64,000 nt of DNA from Gammaproteobacteria bacterium (lineage in GTDB: Bacteria; Pseudomonadota; Gammaproteobacteria; Burkholderiales; Nitrosomonadaceae), in the NCBI GenBank assembly GCA_015709615.1, contig CP054179.1:278785-342784 (forward strand), written 5' to 3'. Each line of letters starts with the position of its first letter. Position 1 is the stretch's first letter. The position numbers and the translations under genes were made by a program. This document shows, one piece after another, positions 5,439 to 57,447 of this stretch. The notes beneath the pieces were generated by a model. That model ran no database searches and was not told where the DNA came from. It worked only from the letters and a program-made list of their open reading frames with translations.

Positions 5439-5448
5439 GCTGCGCTTC

Positions 5449-17800: not shown

Positions 17801-19786
17801 TTGCAGCGCATCCAATTCTTGCTGTTCCTGCGGCGATAAGCCTTGTCCTTCTATCATTTGATCGGACAGACCGTTATCGCCGATGCCCGTCTGGATATGG
17901 CCGTCACGCTTTTCCAATAATTGATTTAAGCGTCCTTCCGCAAAATTCAAAACATCCTTATCAAAACCGGTATTCTGATTCAGTTTTTGTGACAAGTTTT
18001 CCGGTGAAAGCGGCGATTTAGGCAACACTACTTCTTCCGGTATCCCGGCTTGTTGCGCCAGATCGCGCACGATGGAATTGGCTGTCTGCACGGTAGGATG
18101 CTCGCTCGCATCGGCTTGTGGCTGGCTTGGTTCCTGTGTTGCTCCAGGTTGCACCTCCGGCTGTGCTTGCTGAGTCTCGTCCTGCGGATCAACCTGCTGC
18201 TGCTCTGGCTGCTCTGGCTGCTCTGGCTGCCTAAAGGTATTGGCCGCCGACACACCACCTGAAAATGTCGCGCCTGGGCTGGAAGCAATGCCGGTTTCAA
18301 TGATGGTTCTGCCGACATCCTGGCCTAACCTCCGGTTATCGTACTGTCCAGCCATGTAGTTGGTGGCAACCTTCGGCGCAACTTCTTCCAACTGCTCGCC
18401 GCCGAGTTCCGCCGCCGCGCCCTTGGCAAATGCCTTGACTGCGCTCTTCGATGTTCCTTGGCCAAACAGGCTATTTTCCAAACCTGTTTTGCCGCTGACG
18501 AATCCAGCCAAACCGCCGACGGCAGCCGATACCCTGGAATCCTTCAATGCTTCTTCTTCCGCCTGATCAGGGTCCATACCCTGCTTGATCAGCGTTTCTT
18601 TGATGTCGTTGAATGCTTCACCGCGCGCACCACCGGCATTCAATACCGCTCCTGTAGCTCCCGCCGCCGTAGTTGCCAGCGCACCAGCTGTGGCCGCCGA
18701 TGCTCCCCGCGCCTTAGCAGCCATCTGCGTTAATTTTGCTACGCCAATACCGGGAATCATGCTAGGCAGGTTGGTAACGATGAAACGGGCAGCCAGCGCA
18801 GGATCACTGAAATACTGGCCGGCCGCTTCTGCGATCTGCGCCATCACACCGTCTTTGTCCGCTTCTTTTATGGCTGCATCGGCCCGCGCGATTCTCGCTT
18901 TCAAAGGATCGGATTGCAGCTCTTGCGCATCTTTGGATTTCTGATTGAAATACCCGGCTATATCACCTTCAGGAGCGAAAAGGTTCGGAACTGCGCCCAG
19001 TATGTTGTGCATACCCTCAAGCAACTGCGCCCCGGTATCGGACGCAACTTCGCCCATCGTGCGGTCACGCGGCTCATTGGGTGCGGCCATGAATTGTTGC
19101 AGTAGGCTGTCAGCCTGTCCGCCAGCGTGCGGCCGTATGTAATGATCAAAATAGGCCTTCTTTGCAAGCGATTGCTGCTCTTGCGATAGCTTAGAAAACT
19201 CGGGGTTAATGACTATATCAGTCCATTTGGGCGCCTTATCCAGATCAGGCTTGGAAGCTTCTGGCATACTTTCAGCGTGCGCATCCGATACACCGCCCAA
19301 TGCCGCCAGAATATCGCCGACATAGCTCGATACGCGCTTGCCGTTTCCGTCGGCGTGATCTTTTTTGAATGCTTGTCCGCGCTCTTTATTGACATTGCCC
19401 TCGCCGGAGAAATACCCGGTTGCAATCTTCGCCGGGTCATTTCCGAATTTGTCGCCCAAATCCTTGATGATGCGCACACCAACGCGCATATTGTCGTCCG
19501 GGTTGTTGATGGATTCCCCTGGCTTGGCATAACGCTGAAATGTGCCGGGCATGATCTGCATGCCGCCGCGCGCGCCGTCGCTGCTGGTGCGCGCATTTGA
19601 ACCGCTGCCTGATTCTTGGTTGTAGATAGCCTGGATGACTGGCTTTAGATGATCGGCGCCTTCGCTTGTGACGATCTGATTTAGATCGGGAAGCGAAAGC
19701 CCCTTGCTTGGTGTTGACTGTTTTTGTTTTCCGGAACCATCTTGTTTAGAGAAAAAATCGCTTAATCCAATTTCCGATGATCCCAT
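5822..19786 (-). CDS. giant multidomain (polyvalent) virion/ejection protein, 4654 aa
   Basis: Single uninterrupted ORF. Modules recognised: N-terminal lytic transglycosylase (NQESGSG...GGMQIMPGTF); pyrophosphatase-like module (HYGYLKRSEGADGDQVDVYV); gamma-class N6-adenine MTase (LEPSLGVGNFF, VIGNPPFG); SF2/SNF2-type helicase (VGAGKTF, IDEMHEFKN, QREGRIIRRGN); HExxH (LLHEIEGH); ART-like VVYHGTDKDFNEF module; PLxRFG motif (GYAPLMRFGKW); hydrophobic C-terminal region. Confidence 0.9.
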   Translation of the reverse strand: MGSSEIGLSDFFSKQDGSGKQKQSTPSKGLSLPDLNQIVTSEGADHLKPVIQAIYNQESGSGSNARTSSDGARGGMQIMPGTFQRYAKPGESINNPDDNMRVGVRIIKDLGDKFGNDPAKIATGYFSGEGNVNKERGQAFKKDHADGNGKRVSSYVGDILAALGGVSDAHAESMPEASKPDLDKAPKWTDIVINPEFSKLSQEQQSLAKKAYFDHYIRPHAGGQADSLLQQFMAAPNEPRDRTMGEVASDTGAQLLEGMHNILGAVPNLFAPEGDIAGYFNQKSKDAQELQSDPLKARIARADAAIKEADKDGVMAQIAEAAGQYFSDPALAARFIVTNLPSMIPGIGVAKLTQMAAKARGASAATAGALATTAAGATGAVLNAGGARGEAFNDIKETLIKQGMDPDQAEEEALKDSRVSAAVGGLAGFVSGKTGLENSLFGQGTSKSAVKAFAKGAAAELGGEQLEEVAPKVATNYMAGQYDNRRLGQDVGRTIIETGIASSPGATFSGGVSAANTFRQPEQPEQPEQQQVDPQDETQQAQPEVQPGATQEPSQPQADASEHPTVQTANSIVRDLAQQAGIPEEVVLPKSPLSPENLSQKLNQNTGFDKDVLNFAEGRLNQLLEKRDGHIQTGIGDNGLSDQMIEGQGLSPQEQQELDALQSMRGNVSGIKDLYGLNPQQTPEEKQPESVKKLNPVESAPVADRSEDDLRQQMRNANDGRVRNAIAEELRNRDREKSDREAADNLVTVSEKRAKKTGETGDSRVNDQIEKAQETIQHVEAAHHDVANKVNAAAHEAATSPENDRPEPTEAQKQAGNYKKGHLNFDGLDISVENPAGSKRSGTDPNGKPWSVDMTAHYGYLKRSEGADGDQVDVYVPENPVPGSPVYVFDQFNHDGKFDEHKAVVGVSTQEEAQKVYDAHFSDGSGPQRRRGVTAMSASDFKQWAQNGNTQKPLSKPKTEREAKERKKPIKDTINTEQSTSKVVADTGTKKATKKEEHKPKTEKESKARRAKQKEISNATQANETKQTETPGTAETATPKEPDVAIEQQDTAQFAKNKIFTAAKVAAARARLKSKLNTLNSGVDPELLQDGITLAGAYIESGFRTFGEYSDAMINDLGEKVRPYLRSFYEAARHYPGLDTTGMTTAAELDLMEKEGTASHVKQAEGNEIAIGTIEKPKKRTKERKKTDLVLKNDYGVSSIDGYDNETGEGASGVVKRQFLSDTKKYLEGVQKSLAAAGFVPHARNGKALKPVSVNEGGIAVSGDVTLSMFNPEKQRGIYIHIGGTSLRGTVPTTKSGVSVMMRVTKENDPSGGDNNRWMPVNMTDQELANAASIEVEKVADRVNPVAKTPDQLQDTTKPQEVVNANPISTESVSAGNNAGDTENAATGNGHSKPLDNGVAENGESTDSDRGVSGSADSAGRKRAKSTQRSEPESPVELGESRSDGADASAADTERGAGRGSVEQDHSIDAEEIGKGGLAKKYRDNVDAIKLLKNLETEGRKATPQERKTLAKYVGWGAMKGPFDPENKAWEKQHAELKELLTDSEYKAARASTRNAHYTSPVAVGAMYSALQRLGFNGGRLLEPSLGVGNFFGLMPKDLRNSSQLHGVELDSLTSRLAAALYPKAKIAQSTGFEDFDIPSEYFDVVIGNPPFGNEPLVDKERSAYSGFSIHNYFLAKSIDKLRPGGIMAVVVSHNFMDAQDGRVRKWIGERASLIGGVRLPNTAFKENAGTEVVTDILVFQKNDPNGLNKNAAPWQDVADQTNINSKTDEPVTHKVNQFFVSQPQYVLGKPSAAGKMYSANEYTVESTGDIGKQLSEWVDSLPKDIFTSIARTNDSKSTDMAVPDGIKVGSFYVDASGKVMRRGADVMGEKTAEAWQPKSEAQLGRMKGMIAIRDTLRTQMRMERSPDATHQEIEDNRAELNRVYDDFIKKYKFINTVTNRGIFLDDTEAHLIQGLEFDYDRGISKAVAEKEGIEPKAPSANKADIFKRRVAFPPQDFLKVSTAKDALLASLNYRGGIDLPYMSEVYGKSPEDIIQELGDVVFDDPQSGIVAADEYLSGDVKTKLQEAKDAAQADKKYTRNVEALEKVIPKDKTPSEISVSIGASFVPADVYQQFIKHISGVDADVSYIKATGQWVTALNNQGDTTLNTAKFGTSDLPAISLFQLTMLGRGAVVKKTVRNPDGSTTTYVLEQETEAAREKQNTIKAEWQKWLWQDAERADKIASIYNDKMNRIVLRKYDGSHMSFPGMNPSIELLGNQKNGVWRGLQSYRVLFDHVVGAGKTFAMTALAMEMRRLGIARKPFFAVPNHLTLQWMNEFTRLYPGSNVLAATPEDFSKDNRERMFAKIITGDWDAVIVGHSSLKKIGLPPETESEVLQEQIDELAASIEEMKRARGDRRIVADMERIRKNLEAKMKDKLAAIGERSKVVTFDELGIDAMMIDEMHEFKNLAYHTTMDRNPGMGNPAGSSKAFDLFVKTQWLFNTFGEKAPYVTATGTPVSNSLVEMFNMQRYMQYPTLKREGLNVFDAWAKQFGSVENVYEVAPSGSGYRQSTRFAKFTNLPALMSLYNTFADTITLDDLKVQEEAQGKRFPVPKISGGRPTLIVAKRSPAVAALMGVPRAQVDDNGNIEFSADLNKEIKIQHDEKSDKYDAYVGDNHVGKFDTEQDARLKIAELALSPVVSVNPDSIVGRFANLRQLTRDTKGKVNALSLTGEANKAGLDYRLINPSAPDFKGSKINLAVDNMMRIYKQWQSDRGTQLVFCDLSVPLSARSSFSNKPRRLYVRNESGALDMKRGTMHTMPGHEDLPYFIVQRGSGKDSKRFDVYDAASGAAILTDSRSKQDAMDAANGMLSNDDKRNDWITKRESTGEIEQEAIDDFNNENEVETENLELFTREDIAGMSGATKFSVYDDIKKKLIAKGVPEREIAFIHDYSTPVAKNKLFKAVNEGEIRFLLGSTPKMGAGTNVQKRLVGLHHIDAPWRPSDLEQREGRIIRRGNELYERDPDGFEVFIGRYATEQTYDTRRWQILEHKARGIEQLRNYDGTINEIEDIDGEAANAADMKAAASGDPLILEETRLRNEVRRLEKLQASHADEVLAMTRKARDAEYYAKKTAPSIISEAQGLLDEAKKHKLDSEGFSPIAVQGRKPKADKESAYKELASAFNSVREHIIDTADVQYRGIDFRLEHLASSVILRTPTGSSGVWMMSDAFSPSGMVQRMKNYIDRLPDTIQDAKAHADKSIKDAAALREQAKQPFQQAGDLEKTREEHKRVQRALMAKGPQVPDEQKALLVAGIEKQKSRLRTLGYGDALDELLSNADQASLLLGNPANVGGVEIDVARSTVDRIVAANQKVWNIDISTVATFDDLPDNVKNNIAKNYGEDAAKNAKGLVHNGKVYVIANNNESEADIEQTLLHEIEGHMGVRRLYGSEITKKLNDLYIAIGGRKGLIKLANDRGITGSLVDYADMLKNTELPNETRIKIMMDEALAHYAQTPKFGDKVKAIVGMIRAWLRDHKFAKLAEFGETDLLNILRQGRQKLKTGDGGNDSALMMGDRKSGITETITIDGIDRPTRNSNGKPIYPTVEGIRNFWKWFGDSRVVDDQGRPLVVYHGTDKDFNEFKKDSFFSDDVNNAKPYGNRVVESYLKIINPEVADYSGAQDNDKDFDIEEAKDNGNDGLIILNADDGYHVGNQYIAFHPNQIKSATGNTGAFSENDESILFRKGGKEPDDYSSSVDSAQEKLFNFFGNSKEKSPKNFGLYHKTLSTQYHKALKDQHYGKVFSLANAMQNHVSLASIRPSELAPGVLPRVDDVKSAAKGLFKGAQNQKYIKKVADAMFAGTLAGKGATDGRVWDDTELKNVFGLDKTGISLYRQARAAVDASIDELAAAEGYAMAQHIVPKDMRRMIIDEPGIAGTLLKSEVERQANVLNIAIQSARKRGDDEGAARLAALQESYASTLKNLNTIFDTAAGLKKGGYAPLMRFGKWTVTAQEIDPQTGAVERDENGSPATVYFGKFDTESEAMAALDRMKEKYKDRNDIRVDSGIDSEDSHQLYAGISPETVALFGEAIGAGDVANKYYQIALSERSALKRRLERKGTPGYSQDLPRVLSNFITSNGRFSAQRYYLRDLNESIRTIPQNKGDVKDEAIQLKKFIVDPGDPAAPLSTVMFAWFLGGSVAAAMINMTQPVMMTGPYLSQFGLKSATSELTKAIPYAMGKKEITDKSLKDALQRASREGVVDAQEIFHLYSMGAQSIASGLIGTLSRIPGAGKAIKAGSDNARARINAFLTLWGSMFSLAEKFNRKLTFIAAWNMAKEKGNANPYAFAVRAVNETQGIYNKVNRPNWARNPAGRTILTFKQFSLMYVEMLSRMWKRGGPEGKRAALIMLAVLMLASGEEGLPFAQDLDDLIDTIGQLFGLDTNMRRNKREAAYQILGDKLGDMFLYGISSQLPLDVSGRLGLGNFIPGTGLLKKSDEQMRTRNAIELLGPAAGMGSQLGDAYDAATEGNSGKALQNLAPKAIKDILAAEEMARKGYSSDFKGRKVTDVGLSDAAIKASGFNPTKIANVHRKTMPLQQDISLQKITETSIANQWARGIMENDKAMIDEAKKRQDDWNKKNPRIPIAINGNQIRDRVRSLNTDKNTRLLKDSPKEMRGRIGLELLD
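15400..15696 (-). CDS. candidate overlapping gene (+1 frame) inside the giant ORF, 98 aa
   Basis: ATG preceded by AGGAGGT plus a 5-nt spacer (15702-15708). The product looks globular (W, Y and hydrophobic periodicity), while the giant frame here is S/G/D/A/E-rich linker. Confidence 0.4.
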   Translation of the reverse strand: MQTLYQPKAYPPEIMQAIQKMPPLATDIANRWIMGWPKTVKALIATGEYLEALTVQEENERKALSDPSLNHLSSWEKAEVMGLTQAPPTPSEEPDEEA

Positions 19787-44122: not shown

Positions 44123-44434
44123 ATGTTCATTTCAGTCAAAGAGCTCGCGGAACACAGAGGCGTAACGCCTAGAACAATCATAAGCTGGTGCCATAAGGGT
44201 TACTTCGATGGCGATGCCGTATTTCATAGCGGACGATGGATCATATTCATATCTGATTTTCTTCTAGTCTCTCTTCCAAAATTCAAATCTGGAAGGAAGC
44301 AAGGCGGCAAGAACAAAAAACCATACACCAGAAGATCCAGCACTGAACCAATCATCAAGCCACCTGAAGTTCAACCAGTTCGCGCACGATTACTACCACC
44401 CCGGGTGTCTCGGCGTAACGTTTCTTCTGCGTAG
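44123..44434 (+). CDS. MerR/excisionase-type HTH protein (extent uncertain)
   Basis: ISVKELAEHRGVTPRTIISWCHKGY. The only plus-strand ORF in this block, and its 3' part runs antisense into rusA. Confidence 0.45.
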   Translation: MFISVKELAEHRGVTPRTIISWCHKGYFDGDAVFHSGRWIIFISDFLLVSLPKFKSGRKQGGKNKKPYTRRSSTEPIIKPPEVQPVRARLLPPRVSRRNVSSA

Positions 44435-44792
44435 ATTCTACGACCTGCCCATCGTCGCGCCACACAACGCCATTCATGCCATCAAAAATGGATTTGGTGA
44501 TATTGTCGATGTCGCTTTTTTTCGTTGCGGCCAATTTTCCGGTAATAGCCAATAACTGTTTTTTCTTGGACCATGACGGCGGTATCTCTAAGCGGATGTC
44601 CAACTCAACCGATACTGCGCCGGTAATCATCTCCCTTCCGGACATTGCGAAGTGTGCTGAATGTGCTACCAAACCTTCATAGTTCGCCGTTTTCTCTGGC
44701 GTATACATGGCAATATGTTTGCCGCGCCTTGCTGCTTTGTGTCGCGCTTTCGGAACCGGTTGCCCTGGAACCGTAAAAATAATCTCGCCCAT
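44355..44792 (-). CDS. rusA: Holliday-junction resolvase RusA
   Basis: 145 aa. VPGQPVPKARHK..., DIDNITKSIFDGMNGVVWRDDGQV RusA signature. Confidence 0.9.
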   Translation of the reverse strand: MGEIIFTVPGQPVPKARHKAARRGKHIAMYTPEKTANYEGLVAHSAHFAMSGREMITGAVSVELDIRLEIPPSWSKKKQLLAITGKLAATKKSDIDNITKSIFDGMNGVVWRDDGQVVESTQKKRYAETPGVVVIVRELVELQVA

Positions 44793-44909
44793 CTATCCCA
44801 AACCTCTCACCAAAAACCCAGCGACAAAACCAGCCGATGCACCTATCGACAACATGGCCACAAGCATTTGCATGAAACGAAATTCGGTTATTTTTACTTC
44901 TTTGTTCAT
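44793..44909 (-). CDS. 38-aa hydrophobic peptide
   Basis: Hand translation MNKEVKITEFRFMQMLVAMLSIGASAGFVAGFLVRGLG. GGAGGGG RBS, TAATG coupling upstream, and its TAG stop directly abuts the rusA ATG. Confidence 0.55.
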   Translation of the reverse strand: MNKEVKITEFRFMQMLVAMLSIGASAGFVAGFLVRGLG

Positions 44910-45151
44910 TATTTCCCCTCCTTCATCTTCCATTGCCTGTTAACCTCTTCAATAAATTTTTTCGTGTTTTCTTCGCCGTGCTTTTCTGCGAACATTGCGT
45001 AATATCTTAATTTCCGCTCTTCTGGCCATACCATCACTTCACGCGCCTTCTCCTGGTATCTTTTCCGGTGGCGCTTCAGGCATTCTTGCTTGAATGATTC
45101 GGTGTATGTTGGCGCTGGCGTTTTTGTGCATTGCTCGCATTGGCATGGCAT
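44909..45151 (-). CDS. hypothetical protein
   Basis: 80-aa ORF, translationally coupled on both sides. Confidence 0.65.
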   Translation of the reverse strand: MPCQCEQCTKTPAPTYTESFKQECLKRHRKRYQEKAREVMVWPEERKLRYYAMFAEKHGEENTKKFIEEVNRQWKMKEGK

Positions 45152-45624
45152 TAAAAATCACCAGGAGCCACCTGCAAGCAAGTGATTCCTCTTCTTCTCC
45201 ACATATTTACCACTCTGTCACGATCATCGAAAACCGCAACAAGCCTTTTTTTATCATCTTCAAGCATATTGTCTAACCAGCTTTCCTTTAAAACATCATC
45301 CGGCGTGTAATCCATAGCTGGCCGCATTGTCAAAAGATGCTCGTAATTCAAATTGAATGACATGAATGCTGTGTGTTCAGCTATCCACGCCACTGTTTTG
45401 TCACGTACCTCTTCGCTTCTTCCGCTAAACAGCCACACATCAGCGCCAGATAGCATCAAGTTATTCATTATGAAAATTACTGGTTTATTTGGCTCATCCC
45501 TGTCGCAAGCAGCATAAAAATCACGCCATCTGTTAGGGTTATCTTTATCTTCAAGAATACTAACCCTATGATTTATAATCGCCAGTGTTCCATCAATATC
45601 AAATATGTACAGAGGTCTATTCAT
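45151..45624 (-). CDS. HAD-family phosphatase resembling phage polynucleotide 3'-phosphatase domains
   Basis: 157 aa. DIDGTL motif I at the N-terminus, FSGR, FDDRDRVVNMWRRRGITCLQV C-terminal motifs. Confidence 0.7.
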   Translation of the reverse strand: MNRPLYIFDIDGTLAIINHRVSILEDKDNPNRWRDFYAACDRDEPNKPVIFIMNNLMLSGADVWLFSGRSEEVRDKTVAWIAEHTAFMSFNLNYEHLLTMRPAMDYTPDDVLKESWLDNMLEDDKKRLVAVFDDRDRVVNMWRRRGITCLQVAPGDF

Positions 45625-46052: not shown

Positions 46053-46237
46053 ACTCACCTCAAATTTAAAAACCAAGTCAGAAGCTGGCCAGATTGGTTA
46101 CTGGCAATAACAGGCGTTCCAACGTCCATTTGCAGCGCGTATCCTGTCAAGTTATTCATGGCTGCTTTCAGACTCCACTTCGCTGTCCTATCCAGCGTGC
46201 AGCTTCCTTTTTGGCCACCGTGTAGCCGGTGGAACGC

Positions 46238-46462
46238 TTAAAATGTTTCTGGTTTAGCTACAGAACGAATTGCCCACATAAAACCTTGCTGCAAGTTAGT
46301 TTTTCCCAGTGCTACATTACGTTTGTCGGTTGAGTCTATATCTTCCAATTTCTGTATAAATTGCCCGCATTGTTCTGCAAGCGCTTTGCCTTCATTAATC
46401 AGATCGATTTCTTCCTGAGTTAAATCTCTGTAACCTTTAATATGCTTATGCTGATTGTCCAT
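46238..46462 (-). CDS. small protein resembling the Acb2/Tad1-hairpin family (assignment from memory)
   Basis: 74 aa. GYRDLTQEEIDLINEGK...ALGKTNLQQGFMWAIRSVAKPETF pattern. GGAGAA RBS. Confidence 0.45.
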   Translation of the reverse strand: MDNQHKHIKGYRDLTQEEIDLINEGKALAEQCGQFIQKLEDIDSTDKRNVALGKTNLQQGFMWAIRSVAKPETF

Positions 46463-47130
46463 CTATCATTCTCCAAGTTATTAAATCCCAGGGCACTTAC
46501 GCGACCCTGGTTACGTTCATTGAATCCAGAAATTCATCTGGTTGTTAGTGGCCGGAGCTGTACATCTTTACCCGACATGTTTGCGTTACAAGGTAAGTTG
46601 CGATCTTTTCCTATCAAACGGAGGTTCCTTCTGCACGTCAGCTTAATCGTGCATTCACTAACAAGTCATATGCTCTAAAGGCGGAAAGCGGTTCCGGTAT
46701 CTTGGACAGTCCCAAAGTCACGTAGGGCATTGCGCCGACGTGCTGCCGGTGCGATCTTCTCGGCTTGTGACAAGAGCACATGCTTCTTAATGCTGCATTC
46801 ACTAACAATTAAGGCGGCTGGGCTTGATACCAGCTATGCCTAGTCTTATTGCTTGCAGCATCGAAACAAGCCGCTACCGCTTGTGATCATCTGCCGAGTG
46901 TCCTATCCACGCCGCGCCTTAATTGTTAGTCCTAGCTCTTACCCGGCTAGGTTAGGTGTTGATTTGAAGTTCCTATGATTTACTAAAGGGCTCTAGAACC
47001 TTTCGGGACTGCCCTGACTTTCATCATAGCCATCACCAACATAGAAACGGAATCACCCTGCGACTGCGAGCCAGTCAGTAATTCCATGTTGCTCGCTTCT
47101 ATGTTAGCTCTACATTAGGGCAGTAGACGC

Positions 47131-47265
47131 CTATTGTCTGTTAAAATAACAATCAGATAAACCGCTGAATACTAATAGAATCCCAAAAACTGGCCCCCCT
47201 ATACCTATAATCACAGATAGCATCCACCAAGCATCCTGAAATTTTTCCTTTTCTTTTATGTTCAT
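47131..47265 (-). CDS. 44-aa single-TM hydrophobic peptide
   Basis: Hand translation MNIKEKEKFQDAWWMLSVIIGIGGPVFGILLVFSGLSDCYFNRQ. Weak GAGAA RBS. Confidence 0.4.
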   Translation of the reverse strand: MNIKEKEKFQDAWWMLSVIIGIGGPVFGILLVFSGLSDCYFNRQ

Positions 47266-47338
47266 ATTGTGCGTTCTCTAAGATCAATTTTATTAATTAA
47301 TTAACAACATGTTAGCCATCCGTAACGTGGATGAGACG

Positions 47339-47384
47339 TGTTAGCCCTTGGAATCGAACCAAGCTACACCGGTGCGGTGCCGGT
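47339..47384 (-). other. tRNA-like 3'-half mimic (anticodon-like arm + variable + T arm + acceptor-like strand)
   Basis: Minus strand: ACCGG-CACCGCA-CCGGT GTAG CTTGG-TTCGATT-CCAAG GGCTAAC-A. No matching 5' acceptor strand or D arm. Confidence 0.5.
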
Positions 47385-47632
47385 CGTGTCACGCCAGATA
47401 CAACTTACTTAACTCGAGTATTTTCGTCGTACCCTCAACACTATCATCACCAGATTGATAGACTAACAAGTGATTGAGACTGATGTTGCAGCCTGGATTT
47501 GGACACCTTCCAACTCGGCACCAGGCCACAGAAGAAATCACCTTCTGTCTTGTCCTTTCCGTCGCTGATTAGGCGATCCGTAGAGGTTGGCTATTTCGCT
47601 CACAATCTCAATCCTTGTTAGTGCCTGATACC

Positions 47633-47860
47633 TCACAGGCTCTTTGTTAAACAAGTCTCACCAACTGGAAACCAAGGCGTATCTGAATCAGATAAAAAAT
47701 ATCGAACGCGATTATCGCCGTGGTATTCCTCCCATATTTCGATACCAAGAATTTTGCGTTTTCCAAAATCGACACCCTGCGGGTTTGTGTAATTAACTTC
47801 ATCTCCGATTGAGAACTTTGGATTAATCGCCGCTATCACTTTTTTTACTATCTTGATCAT
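47633..47860 (-). CDS. hypothetical protein
   Basis: 75-aa ORF. Confidence 0.65.
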   Translation of the reverse strand: MIKIVKKVIAAINPKFSIGDEVNYTNPQGVDFGKRKILGIEIWEEYHGDNRVRYFLSDSDTPWFPVGETCLTKSL

Positions 47861-47868
47861 GTTTTCTC

Positions 47869-48516
47869 CTATGCAACCTCAGTTTTATCAATCAATCGAA
47901 GATCAGGAACAGCTTTGCTTGCCTGCTGAAATCCGATCAGCGGCTTATCCGTTCCGCCGGTGATCACACGCTGGCATTTATCCGTGTCTCCAATCATCAC
48001 GAACGGTTCCAATTTCAAGCCTTTGCTGCTGTTGTAGGCATTGGCTATTCCGGTCAATACAGCCGGATATTCCGGAATTTCGCTACGTTCACGGAATCCC
48101 CGGTACCGGTTTTCAAATTCCTTCGCTACGAAAGGCCATTCATCCTCGTTTTTTTGTCCCAACGGTATCCATCCGCCCATGTCATGCAATACCCGGTGAA
48201 TCAGTGGATCATCGAAAACAACGTCGACGTAGCAGCCCTTGTGACGAACCGCTTTGTCGACCTTCGCCCAGGCGATCAATGCCGCGTCTTGCGTTGATCC
48301 TTGCAGCATGCGGATGATGTCGGCAGGCTTCGGTAACCACTTCCCGGATTCCGTGTTAACCACGTGCCGGCCGAATGCTTGCGTAATCGCCGCTAGGTCG
48401 TACTGTTTCAACGCATTCCACCAAAGATCGAGAGCAAAATCATTGATTTCTTTATCGTAAAAACTGTAAACACCTACCAAGCCATCATGGAATTTTTGAA
48501 AGTCATGTTCCGTCAT
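47869..48516 (-). CDS. replication accessory protein (helicase-loader-like)
   Basis: 215 aa immediately after, and overlapping, the initiator gene. The N-terminal region resembles G39P-type loader/inhibitor proteins from memory. Confidence 0.55.
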   Translation of the reverse strand: MTEHDFQKFHDGLVGVYSFYDKEINDFALDLWWNALKQYDLAAITQAFGRHVVNTESGKWLPKPADIIRMLQGSTQDAALIAWAKVDKAVRHKGCYVDVVFDDPLIHRVLHDMGGWIPLGQKNEDEWPFVAKEFENRYRGFRERSEIPEYPAVLTGIANAYNSSKGLKLEPFVMIGDTDKCQRVITGGTDKPLIGFQQASKAVPDLRLIDKTEVA

Positions 48517-49408
48517 TTTGTGCCCTCAGTTCGGGTGGTTTCCAATTCCTCGTCGATTCTTTGTTTCGATTCAAAAGCGCATCCGCCTTGTTTTGAATCG
48601 TGCCTTGCAGCACCTTGTCCTTTGCCTGAGCTGCTTCGGTGCGCTGGCCTTCCACGATGCCCAGGACGTACTTGAACCCCTTCTGCTTGTCCTTCGCGGT
48701 CCGTGCTGCGTGCATGAATTCGTCAATCGTTGCACCGGATTCGATCAGCATCAAAAGCTTAGGGTGTGCCGGGTTTAAATCGATAATTCCAACTTTTTTG
48801 AGTTCAAGACACACGCTTGCGCCCGGTGTTGGTTCCCTACTCTGTTGGGAGGGATAGACAGTGTGTGTTATTACAGTATCTTTGGAATCAGGAATCAGAG
48901 AATCAGGAATCAGAGAATCAGCAGGGCTTGCATGGTGCTGATCATGTGCTTGCACTGTGCTTGCACTGTGCTTGCATTGTGCTTGTTCAGTTTTTGTGCT
49001 TGATTCATTGTTAACCAATGACTTAACCAGTGAATACTCACCGGTTACCATGTCATTTTTACGCGTATTTACTTTGTAATATCCGTTCTCATCAGGCAAT
49101 ACGCTGTCTTGTTCTCTGCCGTGCGGATTTTGGTGTTCAAGAAACTGAGGAATACTTATTACTTTTTTGTTGTCTGCCGTATACCGTTTTATAAATCCTC
49201 GACACTCTAGCTCACCAAGCAACTCGTCAATGTCGATTGTGTCAGCAGGGAAAATTGCCATTTTTATTTTTTTCGGCCTATCCTCTAATCTACCTTCTCT
49301 GTCAGCTAGCATCCATAAACCTGGAAAAATCAGGCGCGCTGCATATGAGCATTCAACCAAATCCTCGTTTGTAAAAAACCCTGGCTTTATATTGCGAGCT
49401 CTAGCCAT
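48503..49408 (-). CDS. replication initiator (lambda O-like organisation)
   Basis: 301 aa. MARARNIKPGFFTNEDL N-terminus. Two families of tandem iterons sit in the central linker-coding part. Confidence 0.7.
   Translation of the reverse strand: MARARNIKPGFFTNEDLVECSYAARLIFPGLWMLADREGRLEDRPKKIKMAIFPADTIDIDELLGELECRGFIKRYTADNKKVISIPQFLEHQNPHGREQDSVLPDENGYYKVNTRKNDMVTGEYSLVKSLVNNESSTKTEQAQCKHSASTVQAHDQHHASPADSLIPDSLIPDSKDTVITHTVYPSQQSREPTPGASVCLELKKVGIIDLNPAHPKLLMLIESGATIDEFMHAARTAKDKQKGFKYVLGIVEGQRTEAAQAKDKVLQGTIQNKADALLNRNKESTRNWKPPELRAQNDGT
48886..49006. repeat. putative replication-origin iterons inside the initiator gene
   Basis: GAATCAG five times (48886-48922, alternating 7/8-nt spacing) and TGTGCTTGCAC-like 11-mers at 48946, 48957, 48968, 48979 and 48996. 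Confidence 0.65.
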
Positions 49409-49414
49409 TCTTAC

Positions 49415-50233
49415 TTACCAAAAAAAACAGCCAGCGGCAAAGGTGAGTAAGCCACTGGCTGTATAATGCGCACAGCGTGGTGCGCTGGTCCTCGTCATAA
49501 TCTGGCCAAATGACCAACCGGAACAGTTAGGGAATCCGGCTGGCCTTTGGGTTAAATTGCAATCACGTTTCAACACACCGACCAGCTTCGAGCTGATTCT
49601 GACACCGGACTCGGCCGGCGCACGCGATAAGTGGTTTCCTTTCATTAAAAGGAGGGCCGTACGAAATCTATTCATTTTTTTTGATTTTGGCTTCTCGTGC
49701 ATTGATTTGACCTTGCTCTTAAGTTCCATCAAGCTGGCAATGCACTGTTGAATATCATTCTCTGTTTGATTCAATTCCTCTGAATCAATGATTCCATCGT
49801 TTTCGAGAGCATTTTTTAGGTTGTTCGCTAAGATGCCTTTCTTGCTGATGATTTTTAATATCTGAGCAAGCAATGCATCATCATTAATATCATCGGAATC
49901 ACCTGGAATTCGATACGCCACATAACCGTGGCGCCACATAAACGACCTTATAGCCAGATCAACCATTTGATCGCGCCCGGAATCGGAGAGCAATTCAATG
50001 ATTTGAGATGCTTCCTCGTAATTCAGGTGATGAGAATCGACCGCGCGCCGAAGTTTTTTGTAAAGCACGTTGGGCGAAATCCCCATGCGTGCCGCTAAAG
50101 CTTCAACCCCACCAGGATAAGACCTGGCGGCGATATAAAGCGCATCGTGCTTATTCAATTCGTTGTATTTGCAAGTCATTGGCAAAACCTCTTTTCTATT
50201 GCCGTATTCATATAATGTTTTTCGTGCAAGCAT
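49415..50233 (-). CDS. CII-like phage regulatory protein (C-terminal ~85 codons doubtful)
   Basis: The N-terminal ~185 aa resemble CP76/CII-type regulators (ALYIAARSYPGGVEALAARMGISPNVLYKKL). The remainder is Cys/Trp/Arg-rich and runs through the terminator. The likely start is the ATG at 50179. Confidence 0.6.
   Translation of the reverse strand: MLARKTLYEYGNRKEVLPMTCKYNELNKHDALYIAARSYPGGVEALAARMGISPNVLYKKLRRAVDSHHLNYEEASQIIELLSDSGRDQMVDLAIRSFMWRHGYVAYRIPGDSDDINDDALLAQILKIISKKGILANNLKNALENDGIIDSEELNQTENDIQQCIASLMELKSKVKSMHEKPKSKKMNRFRTALLLMKGNHLSRAPAESGVRISSKLVGVLKRDCNLTQRPAGFPNCSGWSFGQIMTRTSAPRCAHYTASGLLTFAAGCFFW
49421..49461 (-). terminator. strong intrinsic terminator immediately upstream of the initiator gene
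   Basis: Minus strand: CAGCCAGTGG-14 nt-CCGCTGGCTG followed by TTTTTTT, 12 nt before the ATG at 49408. Confidence 0.7.
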
Positions 50234-51460: not shown

Positions 51461-52090
51461 ATGATGAATAACAAAAAAATATTATTACGATCTTTAAATG
51501 CCGCGTTGCTTAGCGCGATTTCCTTTAATGCATGTGCCGATCTCATCACTTTCGATGACATAGATACGTCGATAAGTTCTGCGTTGGTGCCGGACAATTA
51601 TCGCGGTTTTGAGTGGAGCAATACTTTTGTGGCGATAAACGGAACTAAGCCACTATGGGTGGGAACGGGTTATGAGCATGGCATGGTATCCGGACCAAAT
51701 GTCGGCGTAAATGGCGGCGGTGATTCGGTCTACTTTTCAAGCAAAACCCCGTTTGATTTACATTCTATGTACGTCACAAAGGCATGGCATGACGGAATTA
51801 CTCATTTTGATGGATATATTGGAACAACGCTCACCTACTCTGTAGATGTATTTTCAACAACACTAGCACCAACTTTCGTCACATTCGATTGGAGCGGAAT
51901 CAATAAAGTGGTTATGTCGGACGGCGATTACACCATGCAATCGGCCATTGACAACATAGATTATGTATTGCTTGACCCGATTCCGGATCCTGCTCCAAAT
52001 CCAGTTCCAGAACCACAAACTTACGCAATGCTTATAGCTGGTATAGGAATACTAGGCATCGCGCGAACGTATCGAATAAAAGCGTCATAG
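51461..52090 (+). CDS. PEP-CTERM-anchored secreted protein (moron)
   Basis: 209 aa. N-terminal signal peptide. C-terminus VPEPQTYAMLIAGIGILGIARTYRIKAS, i.e. PEP motif, TM helix and basic tail. Confidence 0.8.
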   Translation: MMNNKKILLRSLNAALLSAISFNACADLITFDDIDTSISSALVPDNYRGFEWSNTFVAINGTKPLWVGTGYEHGMVSGPNVGVNGGGDSVYFSSKTPFDLHSMYVTKAWHDGITHFDGYIGTTLTYSVDVFSTTLAPTFVTFDWSGINKVVMSDGDYTMQSAIDNIDYVLLDPIPDPAPNPVPEPQTYAMLIAGIGILGIARTYRIKAS

Positions 52091-52678: not shown

Positions 52679-53254
52679 ATGATCAAGTGCAGGGTGCAAG
52701 TGATAACAAAAGATTTTAGATACCACTATTCCGGAATATTTCAATCAACGTGGCATGCGATGGTGGATGCCGCGGCAAAGGTAACCAATCCCGTGCGATT
52801 GATAACTGTGCAGGTGATCCGGAATATTTCAATCAACGTGGCATGCGATGGTGGATGCCGCGGCAAAGGTAACCAATCCCGTGCGATTGATAACTGTGCA
52901 GGTGATCAAATGAGCATGCCAGTCATGAAATTATCACAGCAAGCCGTGGCGCTTCGCATCCGCGAAAACGAGTGGGACGCCTTGGAGCGTGATCTGGATA
53001 ATCTGGTGTTAAACCGCAGCTATCCACTAGATATTCCAAAAATGCTTGAGTGTATCCAGGAATCGCTAACAAAGCGGCAAGGATTCATACCGGCAAACAC
53101 TATTGAGCACGTCAATATTCAGCAGGATGTAAACGTGCTCGAAGCGCTAATTAACAACATGACGCTGAATCATGAAACGGATGGTTTGATGCAGCGCGCA
53201 GTGAAGCTGGAAGATTTAAAAATCGCCGTTTCAAAGGTTGGACTGACGGCATGA
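52679..53254 (+). CDS. hypothetical protein; 5' part disrupted or created by an 89-bp tandem duplication
   Basis: 191-aa ORF. The two repeat copies are read in different frames. A more conservative start is the ATG at 52910 (MSMPVMKLSQQ...). Confidence 0.5.
   Translation: MIKCRVQVITKDFRYHYSGIFQSTWHAMVDAAAKVTNPVRLITVQVIRNISINVACDGGCRGKGNQSRAIDNCAGDQMSMPVMKLSQQAVALRIRENEWDALERDLDNLVLNRSYPLDIPKMLECIQESLTKRQGFIPANTIEHVNIQQDVNVLEALINNMTLNHETDGLMQRAVKLEDLKIAVSKVGLTA
52731..52908 (+). repeat. perfect 89-bp tandem duplication (2 copies)
   Basis: 52731-52819 and 52820-52908 are identical base for base. Confidence 0.95.
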
Positions 53255-56403: not shown

Positions 56404-57447
56404 ATGAAAAATTTAACGATATTTAGCAATCATCCAAGTTGGATACCAGATTTTAGCTTGCTCGATAAAAATTTATCGATACCAGGAAAGCTTGGTTATT
56501 CGTGGAAAGTTTTACGTGATGGTTTGCCATACATCAGAATTGGAGAAAACATTATTTTGACGTGTGAGCTACAGAAAAAGCTGATACCGGCTCAGGTAGT
56601 AGCTGATGAAGTCAAGAAAAGATTAGCAGAATTAAAAAAAGAACAAGGTTTCAAGCCAGGTAAGAAGCAAGCGCAAGACGTAAAAGAAGCAATTCTCATC
56701 AAACTGCATGAACAAGCATTTGTGACGAGTAAGTTGATAAATGTATGGATAAACGAAAAGCACAAAACGTTATGCGTTGAATCAACTAGCAAAGGTTTGG
56801 TTGACGATGTAATTAAACGTTTGGTAAGGGATATTGAATATCACGGCAAACCAATCGAAGTTAGTAATAGTGTGATTGGTTTTATGCGCAAGATTATCTT
56901 AGATGATCATGCGATGGCAGGATCAATACTCAGAATCGGAAGCAATCTTGTGTTGCAAGATGATGAGAACAAAAAGCAGATTAGCTATAAAAATGAAGAT
57001 ATTGTGACTGAAGAAATAAAAAATCATTTATTCCAAGGGAAAACTCCAAAAAGAATAGAACTTGAAATAATGAGGAAATGCGTTTCTTTTGAAATTGATG
57101 AGAACCTTATCATCAGCAAAATCAATATTGATGACGTAAAAATCGAAAGATCAGATTATGAAAATGAAGATGATTATTTTGATTCGTTATTTGCGATGCA
57201 TTCGGCTCAATGCATGGAAATAATCACATCGCTTTTGGATGTTTTGGGTGAAGTTGATCAATTCCAAGAAGCAGAAACAACCGAAGAGGAAATGCAGCAA
57301 TCGTATGAAGATGGTTACTTAGCAGCGGCGCAAGGCAAGCAGAAAAGTGATTGCCCTATCATCCGCTCGGAATTGGTTGCTGAATGGGTGCGCGGCTTTG
57401 ATACGTGGCATGAAGAAAACCAAGCCACACAGGAAGAGGTTGCTTAA
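56404..57447 (+). CDS. rdgC: RdgC-like recombination-associated protein
   Basis: 347 aa, collinear with E. coli RdgC in the central region (KKLIPAQVV...RLAELKKEQGFKPGKKQ...). Confidence 0.75.
   Translation: MKNLTIFSNHPSWIPDFSLLDKNLSIPGKLGYSWKVLRDGLPYIRIGENIILTCELQKKLIPAQVVADEVKKRLAELKKEQGFKPGKKQAQDVKEAILIKLHEQAFVTSKLINVWINEKHKTLCVESTSKGLVDDVIKRLVRDIEYHGKPIEVSNSVIGFMRKIILDDHAMAGSILRIGSNLVLQDDENKKQISYKNEDIVTEEIKNHLFQGKTPKRIELEIMRKCVSFEIDENLIISKINIDDVKIERSDYENEDDYFDSLFAMHSAQCMEIITSLLDVLGEVDQFQEAETTEEEMQQSYEDGYLAAAQGKQKSDCPIIRSELVAEWVRGFDTWHEENQATQEEVA

What the first reader, a model, noticed from the sequence alone, without database searches (positions are those of the whole stretch)
46463..47632. 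1.17-kb ORF-poor, densely self-complementary block in the early operon: candidate large structured RNA or other unclassified cis element
The rest of the prophage is almost entirely coding, yet this block has no ORF of 60 codons or more on either strand. I found only one 44-codon ORF. It contains many long-range complementarities that I checked base by base.
- 46542-46550 pairs with 46656-46664 (9 bp).
- 46801-46816 pairs with 46915-46930 (16 bp, perfect) and encloses hairpins 46817-21/46830-34 and 46851-55/46867-71.
- A nested stack runs 47008-15/47117-24 (8 bp), then 47038-46/47097-105 (9 bp), then 47049-53/47081-85, then 47062-66/47072-76.
- 47462-47479 pairs with 47606-47622 (17 bp, one bulge) and encloses 47491-96/47521-26 and 47529-34/47542-47.
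- Further hairpins lie at 46488-93/46505-10, 46632-37/48-53, 46931-36/46-51 and 47317-21/29-33.
The flanking genes are all on the minus strand and the next gene's RBS follows directly, so the block is probably transcribed as part of the early-right transcript. Large prophage-borne structured RNAs such as GOLLD and ROOL are often linked to tRNA-like sequences and offer a precedent. I cannot assign this block to any family from the sequence alone.
Basis: partly seen in the sequence, partly recalled or inferred. Interest (0 to 1): 0.8.

Follow-up and report, generated by a model that had tools for sequence, protein, structure and literature searches.

The report
Phage array of tRNA-derived RNA hairpins
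The gene-poor 1.17-kb block is a string of short hairpin and tRNA-shaped modules, not one big RNA; the modules all close with the same 8-9-base helix, recur in about a dozen Nitrosomonas-type phages next to anti-defence genes, match no described RNA family, and have no known function.

Summary
The block has no supported gene, and the listed pairings exist (a perfect 16-bp inverted repeat, several 9-20-bp stems).

The "one large structured RNA" reading does not hold. On the gene-sense (minus) strand the block is an array of modules built on one core pair: (R)CUAACAA ("L", usually preceded by a small hairpin) and UUGUUAGUG ("R"). These are the two strands of a tRNA-type acceptor stem.
- Four long hairpins (C, E, B, D) close L…R.
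- Two tRNA-shaped folds close R…hairpin-L: a degenerate tRNA-Arg(CCG)-like element and unit A.
- A window-specific insert of about 380 nt carries the unsupported 44-codon ORF and contains unit E.

Twelve metagenomic phage contigs carry the same module ends at 90-100% identity, with different interiors and different neighbouring genes. Stems keep pairing through compensatory changes. G·U pairs lie almost only on the sense strand (18 versus 2). This favours RNA over a DNA site.

There is no Rfam hit and no CRISPR-repeat mimicry. The replication origin lies elsewhere, and no segments are inverted between relatives.

Neighbours include Acb2/Tad1, Tad2 and a PNKP-type phosphatase. A Nitrosomonas CRISPR spacer matches unit A.

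Function is inferred: RNA modules processed from the early transcript, possibly counter-defence decoys, whose shared core also acts as a recombination linker.

The parts
47623..47640 (-). Small hairpin GCCUG-UGAGGUAU-CAGGC at the stop of the 75-aa ORF. It directly precedes the first L core.
   Evidence: The same hairpin-plus-L layout recurs at most L sites in all the loci.
47462..47622 (-). Unit C. A long irregular hairpin closed by L (ACUAACAAGGAUUGAGAUUG) and R (CAGUCUCAAUCACUUGUUAGU), about 20 bp with a 1x2 internal loop.
   Evidence: The ends are conserved in L011, L084/L098 and L092, and L097 shows a compensatory AUCGA/UCGAU change. z = -3.6.
47339..47467 (-). tRNA-shaped module TLS-1. 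Acceptor 5' strand GUUAGUC (which is also the R arm of unit C), U8, a D-arm-like AUCA/AUCUGGUGA/UGAU, about 57 extra nt, ACCGG-CACCGCA-CCGGU, GUAG, a canonical T arm CUUGG-UUCGAUU-CCAAG, acceptor 3' strand GGCUAAC, then A73.
   Evidence: ARAGORN at 95% of its threshold calls tRNA-Arg(CCG) at 47338-47408 (-). That was the only extra call in the window plus nine relatives; the fold is shown. With the ~57 nt removed, default ARAGORN calls a 73-nt tRNA-Arg(CCG). It is not called at default settings or by the Rfam tRNA model.
47300..47333 (-). Module H. Hairpin CAUCC-ACGUUAC-GGAUG, then G, then L core CUAACA, followed directly by an R-like UGUUGUUAA. This is an "empty" unit.
   Evidence: (repeats D6, I2, I4). 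In L084/L098 the same hairpin leads straight into unit B (GGAUGG CUAACAAUUAAGGCG).
46931..47309 (-). Insert specific to this prophage, bounded by CTAACA direct repeats. It holds an AT-rich stretch, a promoter-like site (47315-47287), the 44-codon ORF (47265-47131) and unit E.
   Evidence: None of the 12 related loci matches it. Promoter-like CTAACA-17-TAAAAT. The ORF has no homologue.
47008..47124 (-). An L…R hairpin with a variant core (CUAACAUAGAA / UUCUAUGUUGG, U·G on the sense strand), plus an outer helix 47124-17 / 47015-08.
   Evidence: (I5). Sense z = -2.6 versus antisense -0.3.
46801..46951 (-). Hairpin CCUAGC…GCUAGG followed by unit B. P1 is 16-17 bp (ACUAACAAUUAAGGCG / CGCCUUAAUUGUUAGU). 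P2 is a hairpin with loop GA(A/U)RGGA. The interior is variable. The 3' hairpin GCUGG-UAUCAAGC-CCAGC abuts the P1 3' strand.
   Evidence: (I1). In 7 relatives P1 is kept, its first pair is A-U or G·U, and the 3' hairpin shows a G-C to A-U compensatory change. A U-A to G-C change in the P2 stem (GCGUU/AACGC to GCGUG/CACGC) was read from the sequences; it lies just outside the 4-bp P2 helix that one search scored. Five different interiors occur.
46656..46792 (-). Unit D. L' (CAUUAAGAAGCAUGUGCUC) pairs with R (GAGCAUAUGACUUGUUAGUG), about 19 bp, with U·G and G·U wobbles, one G×G mismatch and one bulged A.
   Evidence: The stem extensions differ completely yet stay complementary in the window, L098-type, L082 and L089. 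Sense z = -3.5 versus antisense -1.2. Unit D is absent in L091 and L092.
46542..46664 (-). Unit A (TLS-2), a cloverleaf-like fold. P1 is UUGUUAGUG / CACUAACAA, and its 5' strand is the R arm of unit D. Then AA, then P2 GCACG-AUUAAGCUGA-CGUGC, a variable domain, and a 3' hairpin GYCGG…CCGGY that abuts the P1 3' strand. The P2 loop AGCUGA can pair with the 3'-hairpin loop UCAGCU.
   Evidence: The 5' 33 nt are identical in nearly all the loci (one substitution in L011). The diverged copy A2 in L098/L084 has 4 compensatory pairs (GUUGGUU / AACCAAC). L092 has UCAGUU, which gives a G·U in the loop-loop pairing. A CRISPR spacer in Nitrosomonas MAG L078 equals 46664-46631.
46463..46541 (-). Two 3' hairpins (CCAGA…UCUGG and CCAGGG…CCCUGG), then AUUUAAU and the GGAG ribosome-binding site of the Acb2/Tad1-hairpin gene.
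   Evidence: matches in L097 and L092. L092 has compensatory stems CCGGA/UCCGG and GCUGGC/GCCAGC. Sense z = -3.0.

Best explanation
The block is a mosaic array of short structured-RNA modules, read on the minus (gene-sense) strand and co-transcribed with the early-right operon.

Anatomy. All modules reuse one sequence pair. L is (G/A)CUAACAA, usually just after a 5-7-bp hairpin. R is UUGUUAGUG. Together they are the two strands of a tRNA-type acceptor stem.
- L…R closes long hairpins with 16-22-bp stems (C, E, B, D).
- R…hairpin-L closes tRNA-shaped folds (a degenerate tRNA-Arg(CCG)-like element and unit A).
- Each R can pair with the L on either side of it, so a long hairpin and the tRNA-like fold next to it exclude each other.

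Shown:
- the anatomy above;
- conservation of the module ends across phages;
- compensatory changes in the stems;
- the sense-strand bias of wobble pairs;
- exchange of modules and small genes exactly at the core.

Inferred:
- The stems are cut by host RNases that act on double-stranded or tRNA-like RNA (RNase III, RNase P/Z). This would release stable 60-170-nt RNAs and uncouple the upstream replication cistrons from the downstream accessory cistrons.
- The shared core doubles as a short-homology linker. The phage's own RecT/exonuclease pair, or general recombination, could use it to shuffle modules and morons.
- Judging by the neighbouring genes, the released RNAs may act in counter-defence, for example as tRNA-like decoys.
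For: Family and conservation:
- Twelve independent loci carry the same module ends at 90-100% identity while interiors and flanking genes differ (L011 from IMG/VR, 11 from metagenomes).
- A covariance model of unit A finds it in all of them and finds nothing comparable in about 45 unrelated loci. The one other strong hit is the CRISPR spacer in L078.

Pairing is maintained:
- Unit A: 4 pairs with changes on both sides.
- Unit B: a compensatory pair in the 3' hairpin (G-C to A-U) and in one interior helix. A U-A to G-C change at the top of P2 is read from the sequences.
- Units C and D: the stem extensions differ between loci yet stay complementary.
- Small hairpins upstream of L differ in sequence but keep pairing.

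Which strand folds:
- The 14 distinct closing stems have 18 G·U pairs on the sense strand and 2 on the antisense strand. Summed energy is -363 versus -311 kcal/mol.
- In unit B the first P1 pair is A-U in four relatives and G·U in three.
- Units D, E and the 3' hairpins are stable only on the sense strand.
- In all loci the array points the same way as the flanking ORFs.
- There is no sense-strand terminator-like site.

tRNA ancestry.

Exchange at the core:
- Inserts in the window, L082 and L011 are flanked by CTAACA or (T)GTTAG direct repeats.
- Unit D is missing cleanly in L091 and L092.
- Homology ends exactly after CACTAACAA.
- The phage encodes RecT and a YqaJ exonuclease.

Context:
- The Acb2/Tad1-hairpin gene is directly downstream, and a PNKP-type phosphatase follows two genes further downstream.
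- A Tad2-like gene is directly upstream of the array in L096.
Against: - There are no expression or processing data of any kind.
- The relatives are few and closely related at the conserved ends, so covariation rests on a handful of events. The 18:2 wobble count includes shared ancestry, leaving roughly 8 independent events.
- Unit A and the 47454-47300 segment are no more stable than shuffled sequence.
- The sharp homology breaks at the core also fit a DNA-level recombination site.
- Sister phages with the same replication module lack the array, so it is dispensable.
- RNase III or RNase P cleavage and any decoy role are inference only.
Confidence: 0.5

Rival explanations
1. The core is a DNA-level recombination site, working like integron attC or Xer/pdif modules. 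Each L…R palindrome would be a folded or duplex site for a tyrosine recombinase, and the modules and small genes would be cassettes moved by site-specific recombination.
For: - L (GACTAAC/GGCTAAC) and R (GTTAGTG/GTTAGTC) match the attC R'' RYYYAAC and R' GTTRRRY consensus at about 6 of 7 positions. The consensus is quoted from my own knowledge.
- Units are 77-182 nt, with conserved ends and variable centres.
- Indels and gene-bearing inserts are bounded by direct repeats of the core.
- Core copies alternate in orientation.
Against: - Wobble pairs favour the gene-sense (top) strand (18 versus 2). attC sites fold on the bottom strand.
- The stems show no consistent unpaired central spacer or extrahelical bases. 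Unit B is a perfect 16 bp.
- Units abut each other with only 8-11 nt between them, with no cassette ORF.
- Junctions occur at both L-type and R-type copies.
- No tyrosine recombinase was found among the 30 window ORFs scanned.
- No interior segment is inverted between loci.
- Interior helices also covary, which a crossover site does not need.
Confidence: 0.15
2. The block is an evolutionary scar with no function of its own. It would be a decayed phage tRNA gene cluster plus palindromic debris, kept only because it lies in a recombination-prone accessory region.
For: - TLS-1 is a sub-threshold tRNA with A33/C37 and a ~57-nt interruption.
- The array is absent from sister phages.
- Gene remnants lie nearby in relatives: a lysozyme stub and a rusA pseudogene.
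- Unit A is not unusually stable.
Against: - Module ends are 90-100% identical across phages whose surrounding genes differ.
- Unit A's 5' 33 nt are identical in nearly all the loci.
- Compensatory substitutions preserve helices.
- The strand bias of wobble pairs points to selection on an RNA.
Confidence: 0.13
3. The modules are trans-acting counter-defence RNAs. tRNA-like and hairpin RNAs released from the early transcript would titrate a host defence nuclease or sensor, for example an anticodon nuclease. The PNKP-type phosphatase would work alongside them. This is a more specific version of the best explanation.
For: - tRNA-shaped modules.
- Hypervariable interiors on a fixed scaffold.
- The immediate neighbours are sponge-type anti-defence genes: Acb2/Tad1 in the window, Tad2 in L096.
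- A stand-alone polynucleotide-kinase-type phosphatase lies nearby.
Against: - No target is known.
- None of the interiors I inspected (the window and L092 copies of unit A) shows a normal anticodon stem-loop.
- The association with anti-defence genes rests on two loci.
- There is no similarity to the available CRISPR repeats.
Confidence: 0.17
4. The block is one large structured RNA of the GOLLD/ROOL type.
For: A long non-coding stretch in a prophage with many helices and a tRNA-like sequence.
Against: - No Rfam match at E<=10 in the window or in relatives.
- Relatives hold different subsets and orders of the modules, and genes sit between them.
- One third of the block is specific to this lineage.
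Confidence: 0.03

Closest known systems
RNase III processing hairpins between the early genes of phage T7/T3 (own knowledge)
   Same: Sense-strand hairpins of about 20 bp, some with an internal loop, sit between cistrons of a phage early operon. Copies within one genome share sequence.
   Different: - Here several units follow each other with no cistron between them.
- The interiors are large (60-170 nt) multi-helix domains that covary.
- All units share an acceptor-stem-like 8-mer.
- Cleavage is untested.
Phage tRNA gene clusters and tRNA-like structures, such as the P4 CI and P1 C4 RNAs matured by RNase P (own knowledge)
   Same: - TLS-1 has a canonical T arm, a D-loop-like AUCUGGUGA and a 7-bp acceptor stem.
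- Unit A has tRNA connectivity: acceptor, 2 nt, hairpin, variable domain, hairpin, acceptor.
- As with P4 seqA/B/C, one sequence is complementary to copies both upstream and downstream on the same transcript.
   Different: - ARAGORN at default settings does not call it.
- The Rfam tRNA and C4 models do not match it.
- The anticodon loop has A33 and C37.
- No CCA end.
- Unit A's hairpin loops are not D- or T-loops.
PeSL (promoter-early stem-loop) cassettes of T4-type phages (own knowledge: Arbiol et al. 2010)
   Same: Repeated conserved stem-loop elements flank accessory ORFs in a hyperplastic region and mark the points where modules are shuffled between phages.
   Different: PeSLs carry an early promoter in each copy, are about 70 bp, and are not tRNA-like. 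Here only one promoter-like site was found.
Integron attC sites / CALIN arrays
   Same: Imperfect palindromes of similar length, with conserved AAC…GTT-containing ends and variable centres. Indels are bounded by the core.
   Different: - The better-folding strand is the coding strand.
- No consistent extrahelical bases or unpaired central spacer.
- No cassette ORFs between most units.
- No integron integrase was seen.
RNA anti-CRISPRs (Racr; PMC10651486)
   Same: Small non-coding RNAs in phage anti-defence neighbourhoods. The hairpin followed by CUAAGAAG superficially recalls the type I-F repeat hairpin followed by CUAAGAAA (the I-F repeat is quoted from memory).
   Different: The defining high identity to a cognate CRISPR repeat is absent. 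Alignment scores equal those of shuffled sequence. The hairpins differ from one another.

Membership tests
GOLLD / ROOL and other large Rfam RNAs | Match to the family covariance model | tested here: not met
   cmscan of the whole window at gathering score finds only tRNA-Lys at 5449-5521. Scanning 46200-47900 at E<=10 gives only a chance mir-217 hit. Seven relatives at E<=1 give nothing.
GOLLD / ROOL and other large Rfam RNAs | One conserved multi-domain RNA with a fixed order of domains | tested here: not met
   Relatives carry different subsets and orders of the modules, and genes sit between modules.
tRNA (element at 47467/47408-47338, minus strand) | Cloverleaf that passes the standard detectors | tested here: inconclusive
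   ARAGORN at default settings finds nothing. At 95% of its threshold it calls tRNA-Arg(CCG), the only extra call in about 140 kb. After removing ~57 nt, default ARAGORN calls it. The Rfam tRNA model gives no hit at E<=10.
tRNA (element at 47467/47408-47338, minus strand) | Canonical T arm and T-loop, U8, D-loop GG, 7-bp acceptor stem | tested here: met
   CUUGG-UUCGAUU-CCAAG; GUUAGUC/GGCUAAC with one U·G pair; U8; AUCUGGUGA.
tRNA (element at 47467/47408-47338, minus strand) | U33 and a purine at position 37 in a 7-nt anticodon loop; contiguous body | tested here: not met
   The loop CACCGCA has A33 and C37. About 57 nt separate the good 5' half from the anticodon arm.
Integron attC | R'' RYYYAAC and R' GTTRRRY at the two ends of a 57-141-nt palindrome | tested here: inconclusive
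   GACTAAC/GGCTAAC and GTTAGTG/GTTAGTC match about 6 of 7 positions; units are 77-182 nt. No attC covariance model was available.
Integron attC | Bottom-strand fold with an unpaired central spacer and extrahelical bases | tested here: not met
   18 G·U pairs on the top (coding) strand versus 2 on the bottom strand. Unit B's stem is a perfect 16 bp. Bulges differ from unit to unit.
Integron attC | Cassette ORFs between sites, with an IntI integrase nearby | tested here: not met
   Units B, D and A are separated by 0-11 nt. No tyrosine recombinase was found among the 30 ORFs scanned. The structural genes were not scanned.
RNA anti-CRISPR (Racr) | High sequence and structure identity to a cognate CRISPR repeat (PMC10651486) | tested here: not met
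   The best local alignment to the Nitrosomonas MAG repeat (L078) scores 9, and to a type I-F repeat scores 10. Shuffled sequence gives 9.2-9.3 +/- 1.1-1.2. Other host repeat types could not be tested.
RNase III processing hairpins | Sense-strand double-stranded stem of about two helical turns within the transcript | tested here: met
   Closing stems have 16-22 Watson-Crick pairs plus up to 4 G·U pairs, at -19 to -31 kcal/mol.
RNase III processing hairpins | Staggered cleavage by RNase III | not testable with these tools
   Needs an in vitro cleavage assay or in vivo end mapping.
P4 CI / P1 C4 antisense RNA (Rfam C4) | Match to the covariance model | tested here: not met
   No hit at E<=10.
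Replication origin | Iterons for the phage initiator; co-inherited with the initiator gene | tested here: not met
   The iterons lie inside the initiator gene at 48884-48985. Relatives with the same initiator and DUF6475 genes lack the array.
Shufflon / invertible segments | Segments found in both orientations among relatives | tested here: not met
   Opposite-strand blastn among 10 arrays finds no inverted interior.
Type I toxin-antitoxin (44-codon ORF) | A conserved small hydrophobic toxin gene with an antisense RNA | tested here: inconclusive
   The ORF encodes one predicted transmembrane stretch and has a promoter-like site. It has no homologue among 5.8 billion proteins, and gene callers do not call it.

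The most novel reading that the evidence does not exclude
The array is an RNA arm of a phage anti-defence island. A set of tRNA-acceptor-derived modules (two tRNA mimics and four long hairpins) would be excised from the early transcript. They would act as decoys or inhibitors of host RNA-targeting or tRNA-targeting immunity. Their interiors would diversify on a fixed scaffold and be swapped between phages at the shared 8-mer.
Probability: 0.17. Interest if true: 0.8.

Novelty: new variant of a known kind. Interest (0 to 1): 0.55.

Why it matters
If the modules are functional RNAs, this is an undescribed family of phage non-coding elements in ammonia-oxidiser (Nitrosomonas-type) phages. It has an unusual grammar. 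One acceptor-stem sequence is reused as the closing helix of both long hairpins and tRNA mimics, so neighbouring folds compete for it. The same sequence also marks the break-points of module exchange.

Its position next to Acb2/Tad1, Tad2 and a PNKP-type phosphatase makes an RNA-based counter-defence role testable.

If it turns out to be only a processing or recombination linker, it would still be a clear temperate-phage counterpart of the T4 PeSL shuffling cassettes.

Tried and rejected
Searches that found nothing:
- Rfam at permissive thresholds on the window and on relatives.
- ARAGORN at default settings on the relatives.
- megablast against E. coli genomes and sensitive blastn against the phage and plasmid collections. 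An 8-kb query around the block hit only the replication-region genes and Acb2.
- The 15-nt core pattern in IMG/VR gave 77 hits, of which only L011 is real. Two further IMG/VR patterns found only L011 again.
- The genome-contig scan gave three chance hits plus the CRISPR spacer. It did not find the host genome itself.
- Following homologues of the replication initiator into other contigs (L102-L109) found no array. One gene-free gap there is a rusA pseudogene.
- Literature searches turned up no described equivalent.

Readings rejected:
- Replication origin. The iterons are inside the initiator gene.
- Shufflon-type inversion.
- CRISPR-repeat mimicry.
- CsrA or GGA sponge. GGA-containing words are not among the k-mers enriched in the arrays; only the core is.
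- Base-pairing to another part of the window. Only chance-level 12-14-mers were found.
- rrn/lambda boxA. L lacks the GCUCUU part (read from the sequence; boxA consensus from my own knowledge).
- MITE or REP elements. Core copies are confined to the block, the hairpin sequences differ from one another, and the end orientation is inconsistent.
- A conserved partner protein. Small Cys-rich ORFs lie near some arrays but belong to two unrelated families.

Full report
**Observation**

The block lies on the minus-strand early-right operon. The gene order is:
- cII-like regulator (49415-50233);
- replication initiator (48503-49408);
- DUF6475 protein, a possible helicase loader (47869-48516);
- a 75-aa ORF (47633-47860);
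- the block;
- Acb2/Tad1-hairpin protein (46238-46462);
- a 66-aa ORF;
- PNKP-type HAD phosphatase (45151-45624);
- an 80-aa ORF;
- RusA (44355-44792).

No ORF in the block has support. The 44-codon ORF has no homologue. Gene callers on three identical public copies of the prophage call nothing in the 1170 nt.

Fold stability is moderate. Single units reach z of about -2.5 to -3.6. Unit A and the 47454-47300 segment are no better than shuffled sequence.

**What the stems are made of**

Nearly all the long stems use one 8-mer, ACTAACAA/TTGTTAGT. Six of its 8 copies in the 64-kb window lie in the block, and 9 of the 21 CTAACA/TGTTAG copies do (0.6 expected).

I define two site types on the minus strand:
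- **L** is (G/A)CUAACAA, almost always preceded by a 5-7-bp hairpin whose sequence differs from copy to copy.
- **R** is (C)UUGUUAGUG.

Reading 5' to 3' on the minus strand, the block contains:
- hairpin + L…R = unit C (47622-47462);
- R…T-arm + L = a tRNA-shaped module, TLS-1 (47467-47339);
- hairpin + L directly followed by an R-like copy = module H (47333-47300);
- hairpin + unit B (46951-46801);
- unit D (46792-46656);
- unit A (46664-46542), closed R…hairpin + L;
- two further hairpins and the ribosome-binding site of the Acb2 gene (46541-46463).

Each R can pair with the L on either side. Units C and TLS-1, and units D and A, therefore share a strand and exclude each other.

**tRNA ancestry**

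TLS-1 has:
- a perfect T arm (CUUGG-UUCGAUU-CCAAG) followed directly by GGCUAAC + A;
- a 5' strand GUUAGUC;
- U8;
- a D-arm-like AUCA/AUCUGGUGA/UGAU;
- an anticodon-arm-like ACCGG-CACCGCA-CCGGU.

ARAGORN at default settings misses it. At 95% of its threshold ARAGORN calls tRNA-Arg(CCG) at 47338-47408 (-). That was the only extra call in the window plus nine related loci. With about 57 intervening nucleotides removed, the default program calls a 73-nt tRNA-Arg(CCG).

The loop has A33 and C37, so this is not a normal decoding tRNA. L and R are therefore the 3' and 5' strands of a tRNA-type acceptor stem.

Unit A has the same connectivity: 9-bp stem, AA, hairpin, variable domain, hairpin abutting the 3' strand. 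Its first hairpin loop (AGCUGA) is complementary to the loop of the last hairpin (UCAGCU). In L092 that loop is UCAGUU, which gives a G·U pair.

**Relatives**

Pattern scans found one IMG/VR contig (L011) and eleven metagenomic contigs with the same elements. Between them and the window, only the module ends are conserved (90-100% identity). Interiors fall into several unrelated families, and the flanking genes differ.

Arrays differ in composition:
- C-A in L092;
- D-A in L089;
- B-A in L091;
- B-D-A in L096;
- A2-C-H-B-D-A in L098.

Gene-bearing inserts are flanked by direct repeats of the core: 313 nt in L082, about 830 nt with a lysozyme gene in L011, and about 380 nt in the window. Homology to the right of unit A stops exactly after CACTAACAA.

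The window's genome is a MAG labelled Gammaproteobacteria. The closest homologues of its replication initiator are in Nitrosomonas. A CRISPR array in a Nitrosomonas MAG carries a spacer identical to 46664-46631, and L098-type phages have a TTC PAM in front of that sequence. Sister phages with the same replication genes lack the array, so it is an accessory element.

**RNA or DNA?**

Several observations favour a folded sense-strand RNA:
- **Compensatory changes.** Unit A has four pairs changed on both sides (GUUAGUG/CACUAAC to GUUGGUU/AACCAAC, and in P2). Unit B has compensatory pairs in its 3' hairpin and in an interior helix; a U-A to G-C change at the top of P2 is read from the sequences. 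L097's unit C has AUCGA/UCGAU in place of AUUGA/UCAAU. Unit D's stem extensions differ completely in four loci yet stay complementary. The interior helix of unit A changes from GUUUG/CAAAC to GAUGG/CCAUC (sequences).
- **Strand asymmetry.** The 14 distinct closing stems hold 18 G·U pairs on the sense strand and 2 on the antisense strand. Summed energy is -363 versus -311 kcal/mol. Units D, E and the 3' hairpins are stable only on the sense strand.
- **Orientation.** Every array points the same way as its neighbouring genes. No sense-strand terminator-like site is present.

DNA-level alternatives were tested:
- **Origin of replication.** The iterons lie inside the initiator gene at 48884-48985, and the array is not inherited together with that gene.
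- **Invertible segments.** No interior segment is inverted between loci.
- **attC-like site.** The ends resemble RYYYAAC/GTTRRRY. However, the better-folding strand is the coding strand, the bulges are inconsistent, the units abut without cassettes, junctions occur at both L and R copies, and no tyrosine recombinase was found among the 30 ORFs scanned.

I keep a DNA recombination role as a rival at 0.15. Short-homology exchange at the core, helped by the phage RecT/YqaJ pair, is part of the main explanation.

**Comparison with known families**

- No Rfam family matches.
- The hairpin + CUAAGAAG layout recalls a type I-F CRISPR repeat. But similarity to that repeat, and to the one Nitrosomonas repeat in hand, is at the level of shuffled sequence. 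Racrs are defined by high identity to a cognate repeat (PMC10651486).
- No k-mer other than the core is enriched.
- There is no complementarity to the rest of the window.
- The closest analogues by mechanism are T7-type RNase III processing hairpins, RNase P-matured tRNA-like phage RNAs (P4 CI, P1 C4), and the T4 PeSL shuffling cassettes. These three comparisons rest on my own knowledge. The element is a member of none of them.

**Function**

The context is an accessory, anti-defence hot spot:
- Acb2/Tad1 directly downstream, and a PNKP-type phosphatase two genes further downstream;
- a Tad2-like gene directly upstream of the array in L096;
- a PAPS-reductase-like gene downstream in L098.

My best account (confidence 0.5) has three parts:
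- The array is transcribed with the early operon and folds into modules.
- The 16-22-bp stems and tRNA-like folds are cut by RNase III and RNase P/Z. This would release structured RNAs and separate the cistrons.
- The shared core mediates module exchange.

A decoy or counter-defence role for the released RNAs is the most interesting reading that the evidence does not exclude (probability about 0.17). None of the processing or functional steps is shown. They need end-mapping, in vitro cleavage and genetics.

**Verdict**

The feature is real, but the "single large RNA" label is wrong. It is an undescribed, narrowly distributed family of tRNA-acceptor-derived RNA modules. Interest is moderate to high, and function is unresolved.

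Noticed in passing
window 48884-48985: Tandem repeats inside the replication-initiator gene: GGAATCA x5 and TGTGCTTGCAC x3.7. This is probably the phage origin of replication (iterons within the initiator gene, as in lambda O).
   Followed up: partly
L078 4471-4551 (Nitrosomonas sp. MAG NZ_QPHG01000014.1): A CRISPR array with the 37-nt repeat GTAGCGCCCGGCTCCAAAGCCGGGCGAGGATTGAAAC has a spacer identical to window 46664-46631 (unit A's 5' end). L098-type relatives have a TTC PAM in front of that sequence. This links the phage group to Nitrosomonas hosts.
   Followed up: yes
window 46238-46462 (-); L096 1501-1737: An Acb2/Tad1-hairpin gene lies directly downstream of the array in the window (PF24729, E=5e-19). 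A Tad2-like gene lies directly upstream of the array in L096 (PF11195, E=8e-19). The arrays therefore sit in anti-defence neighbourhoods.
   Followed up: partly
window 45151-45624 (-): A stand-alone polynucleotide-kinase-type HAD phosphatase domain (PF25109), with no kinase or ligase partner nearby. It may take part in RNA or tRNA end repair.
   Followed up: no
window 52730-52907: A perfect 88-bp tandem duplication (2.0 copies, 100% identical) inside ORF 52679-53254.
   Followed up: no
window 5822-19786 (-), next to tRNA-Lys 5449-5524: A single 4654-aa ORF at the prophage edge beside the tRNA-Lys gene. No integrase was seen among the ORFs I scanned, and the prophage seems to run past the right end of the window.
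   Followed up: no
L011 1823-2257; L098 about 2115-2173; L085 (oriented) about 5382-5440: A 144-aa lysozyme gene sits inside the array region of L011. In L098 and L085 it is reduced to a short in-frame stub that joins its first and last codons (MKLSDKGRALLI…LWEGVA). This shows rapid gene loss in this hot spot.
   Followed up: no
L102 6630-7085: The gene-free gap downstream of the DUF6475 gene in a Nitrosomonas sp. chromosome (CP091135.1) is a frameshifted rusA pseudogene, not an array.
   Followed up: yes
window 56404-57447 (+) and 51461-52090 (+): An RdgC-domain ORF with a weak, sub-threshold C-terminal match to ribosome-modulation-factor (RMF), and a PEP-CTERM-tagged protein, both in the early-left operon. 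PEP-CTERM-like secreted proteins also follow the arrays in L085, L086 and L088.
   Followed up: no
window 44909-45151 (-); L098 1801-2010; L096 1194-1475: Two unrelated families of small Cys-rich basic proteins lie close to the arrays in several loci: an 80/69-aa family and a 93-aa family. No Pfam or PHROG match was found for the members scanned. They might bind nucleic acid.
   Followed up: partly
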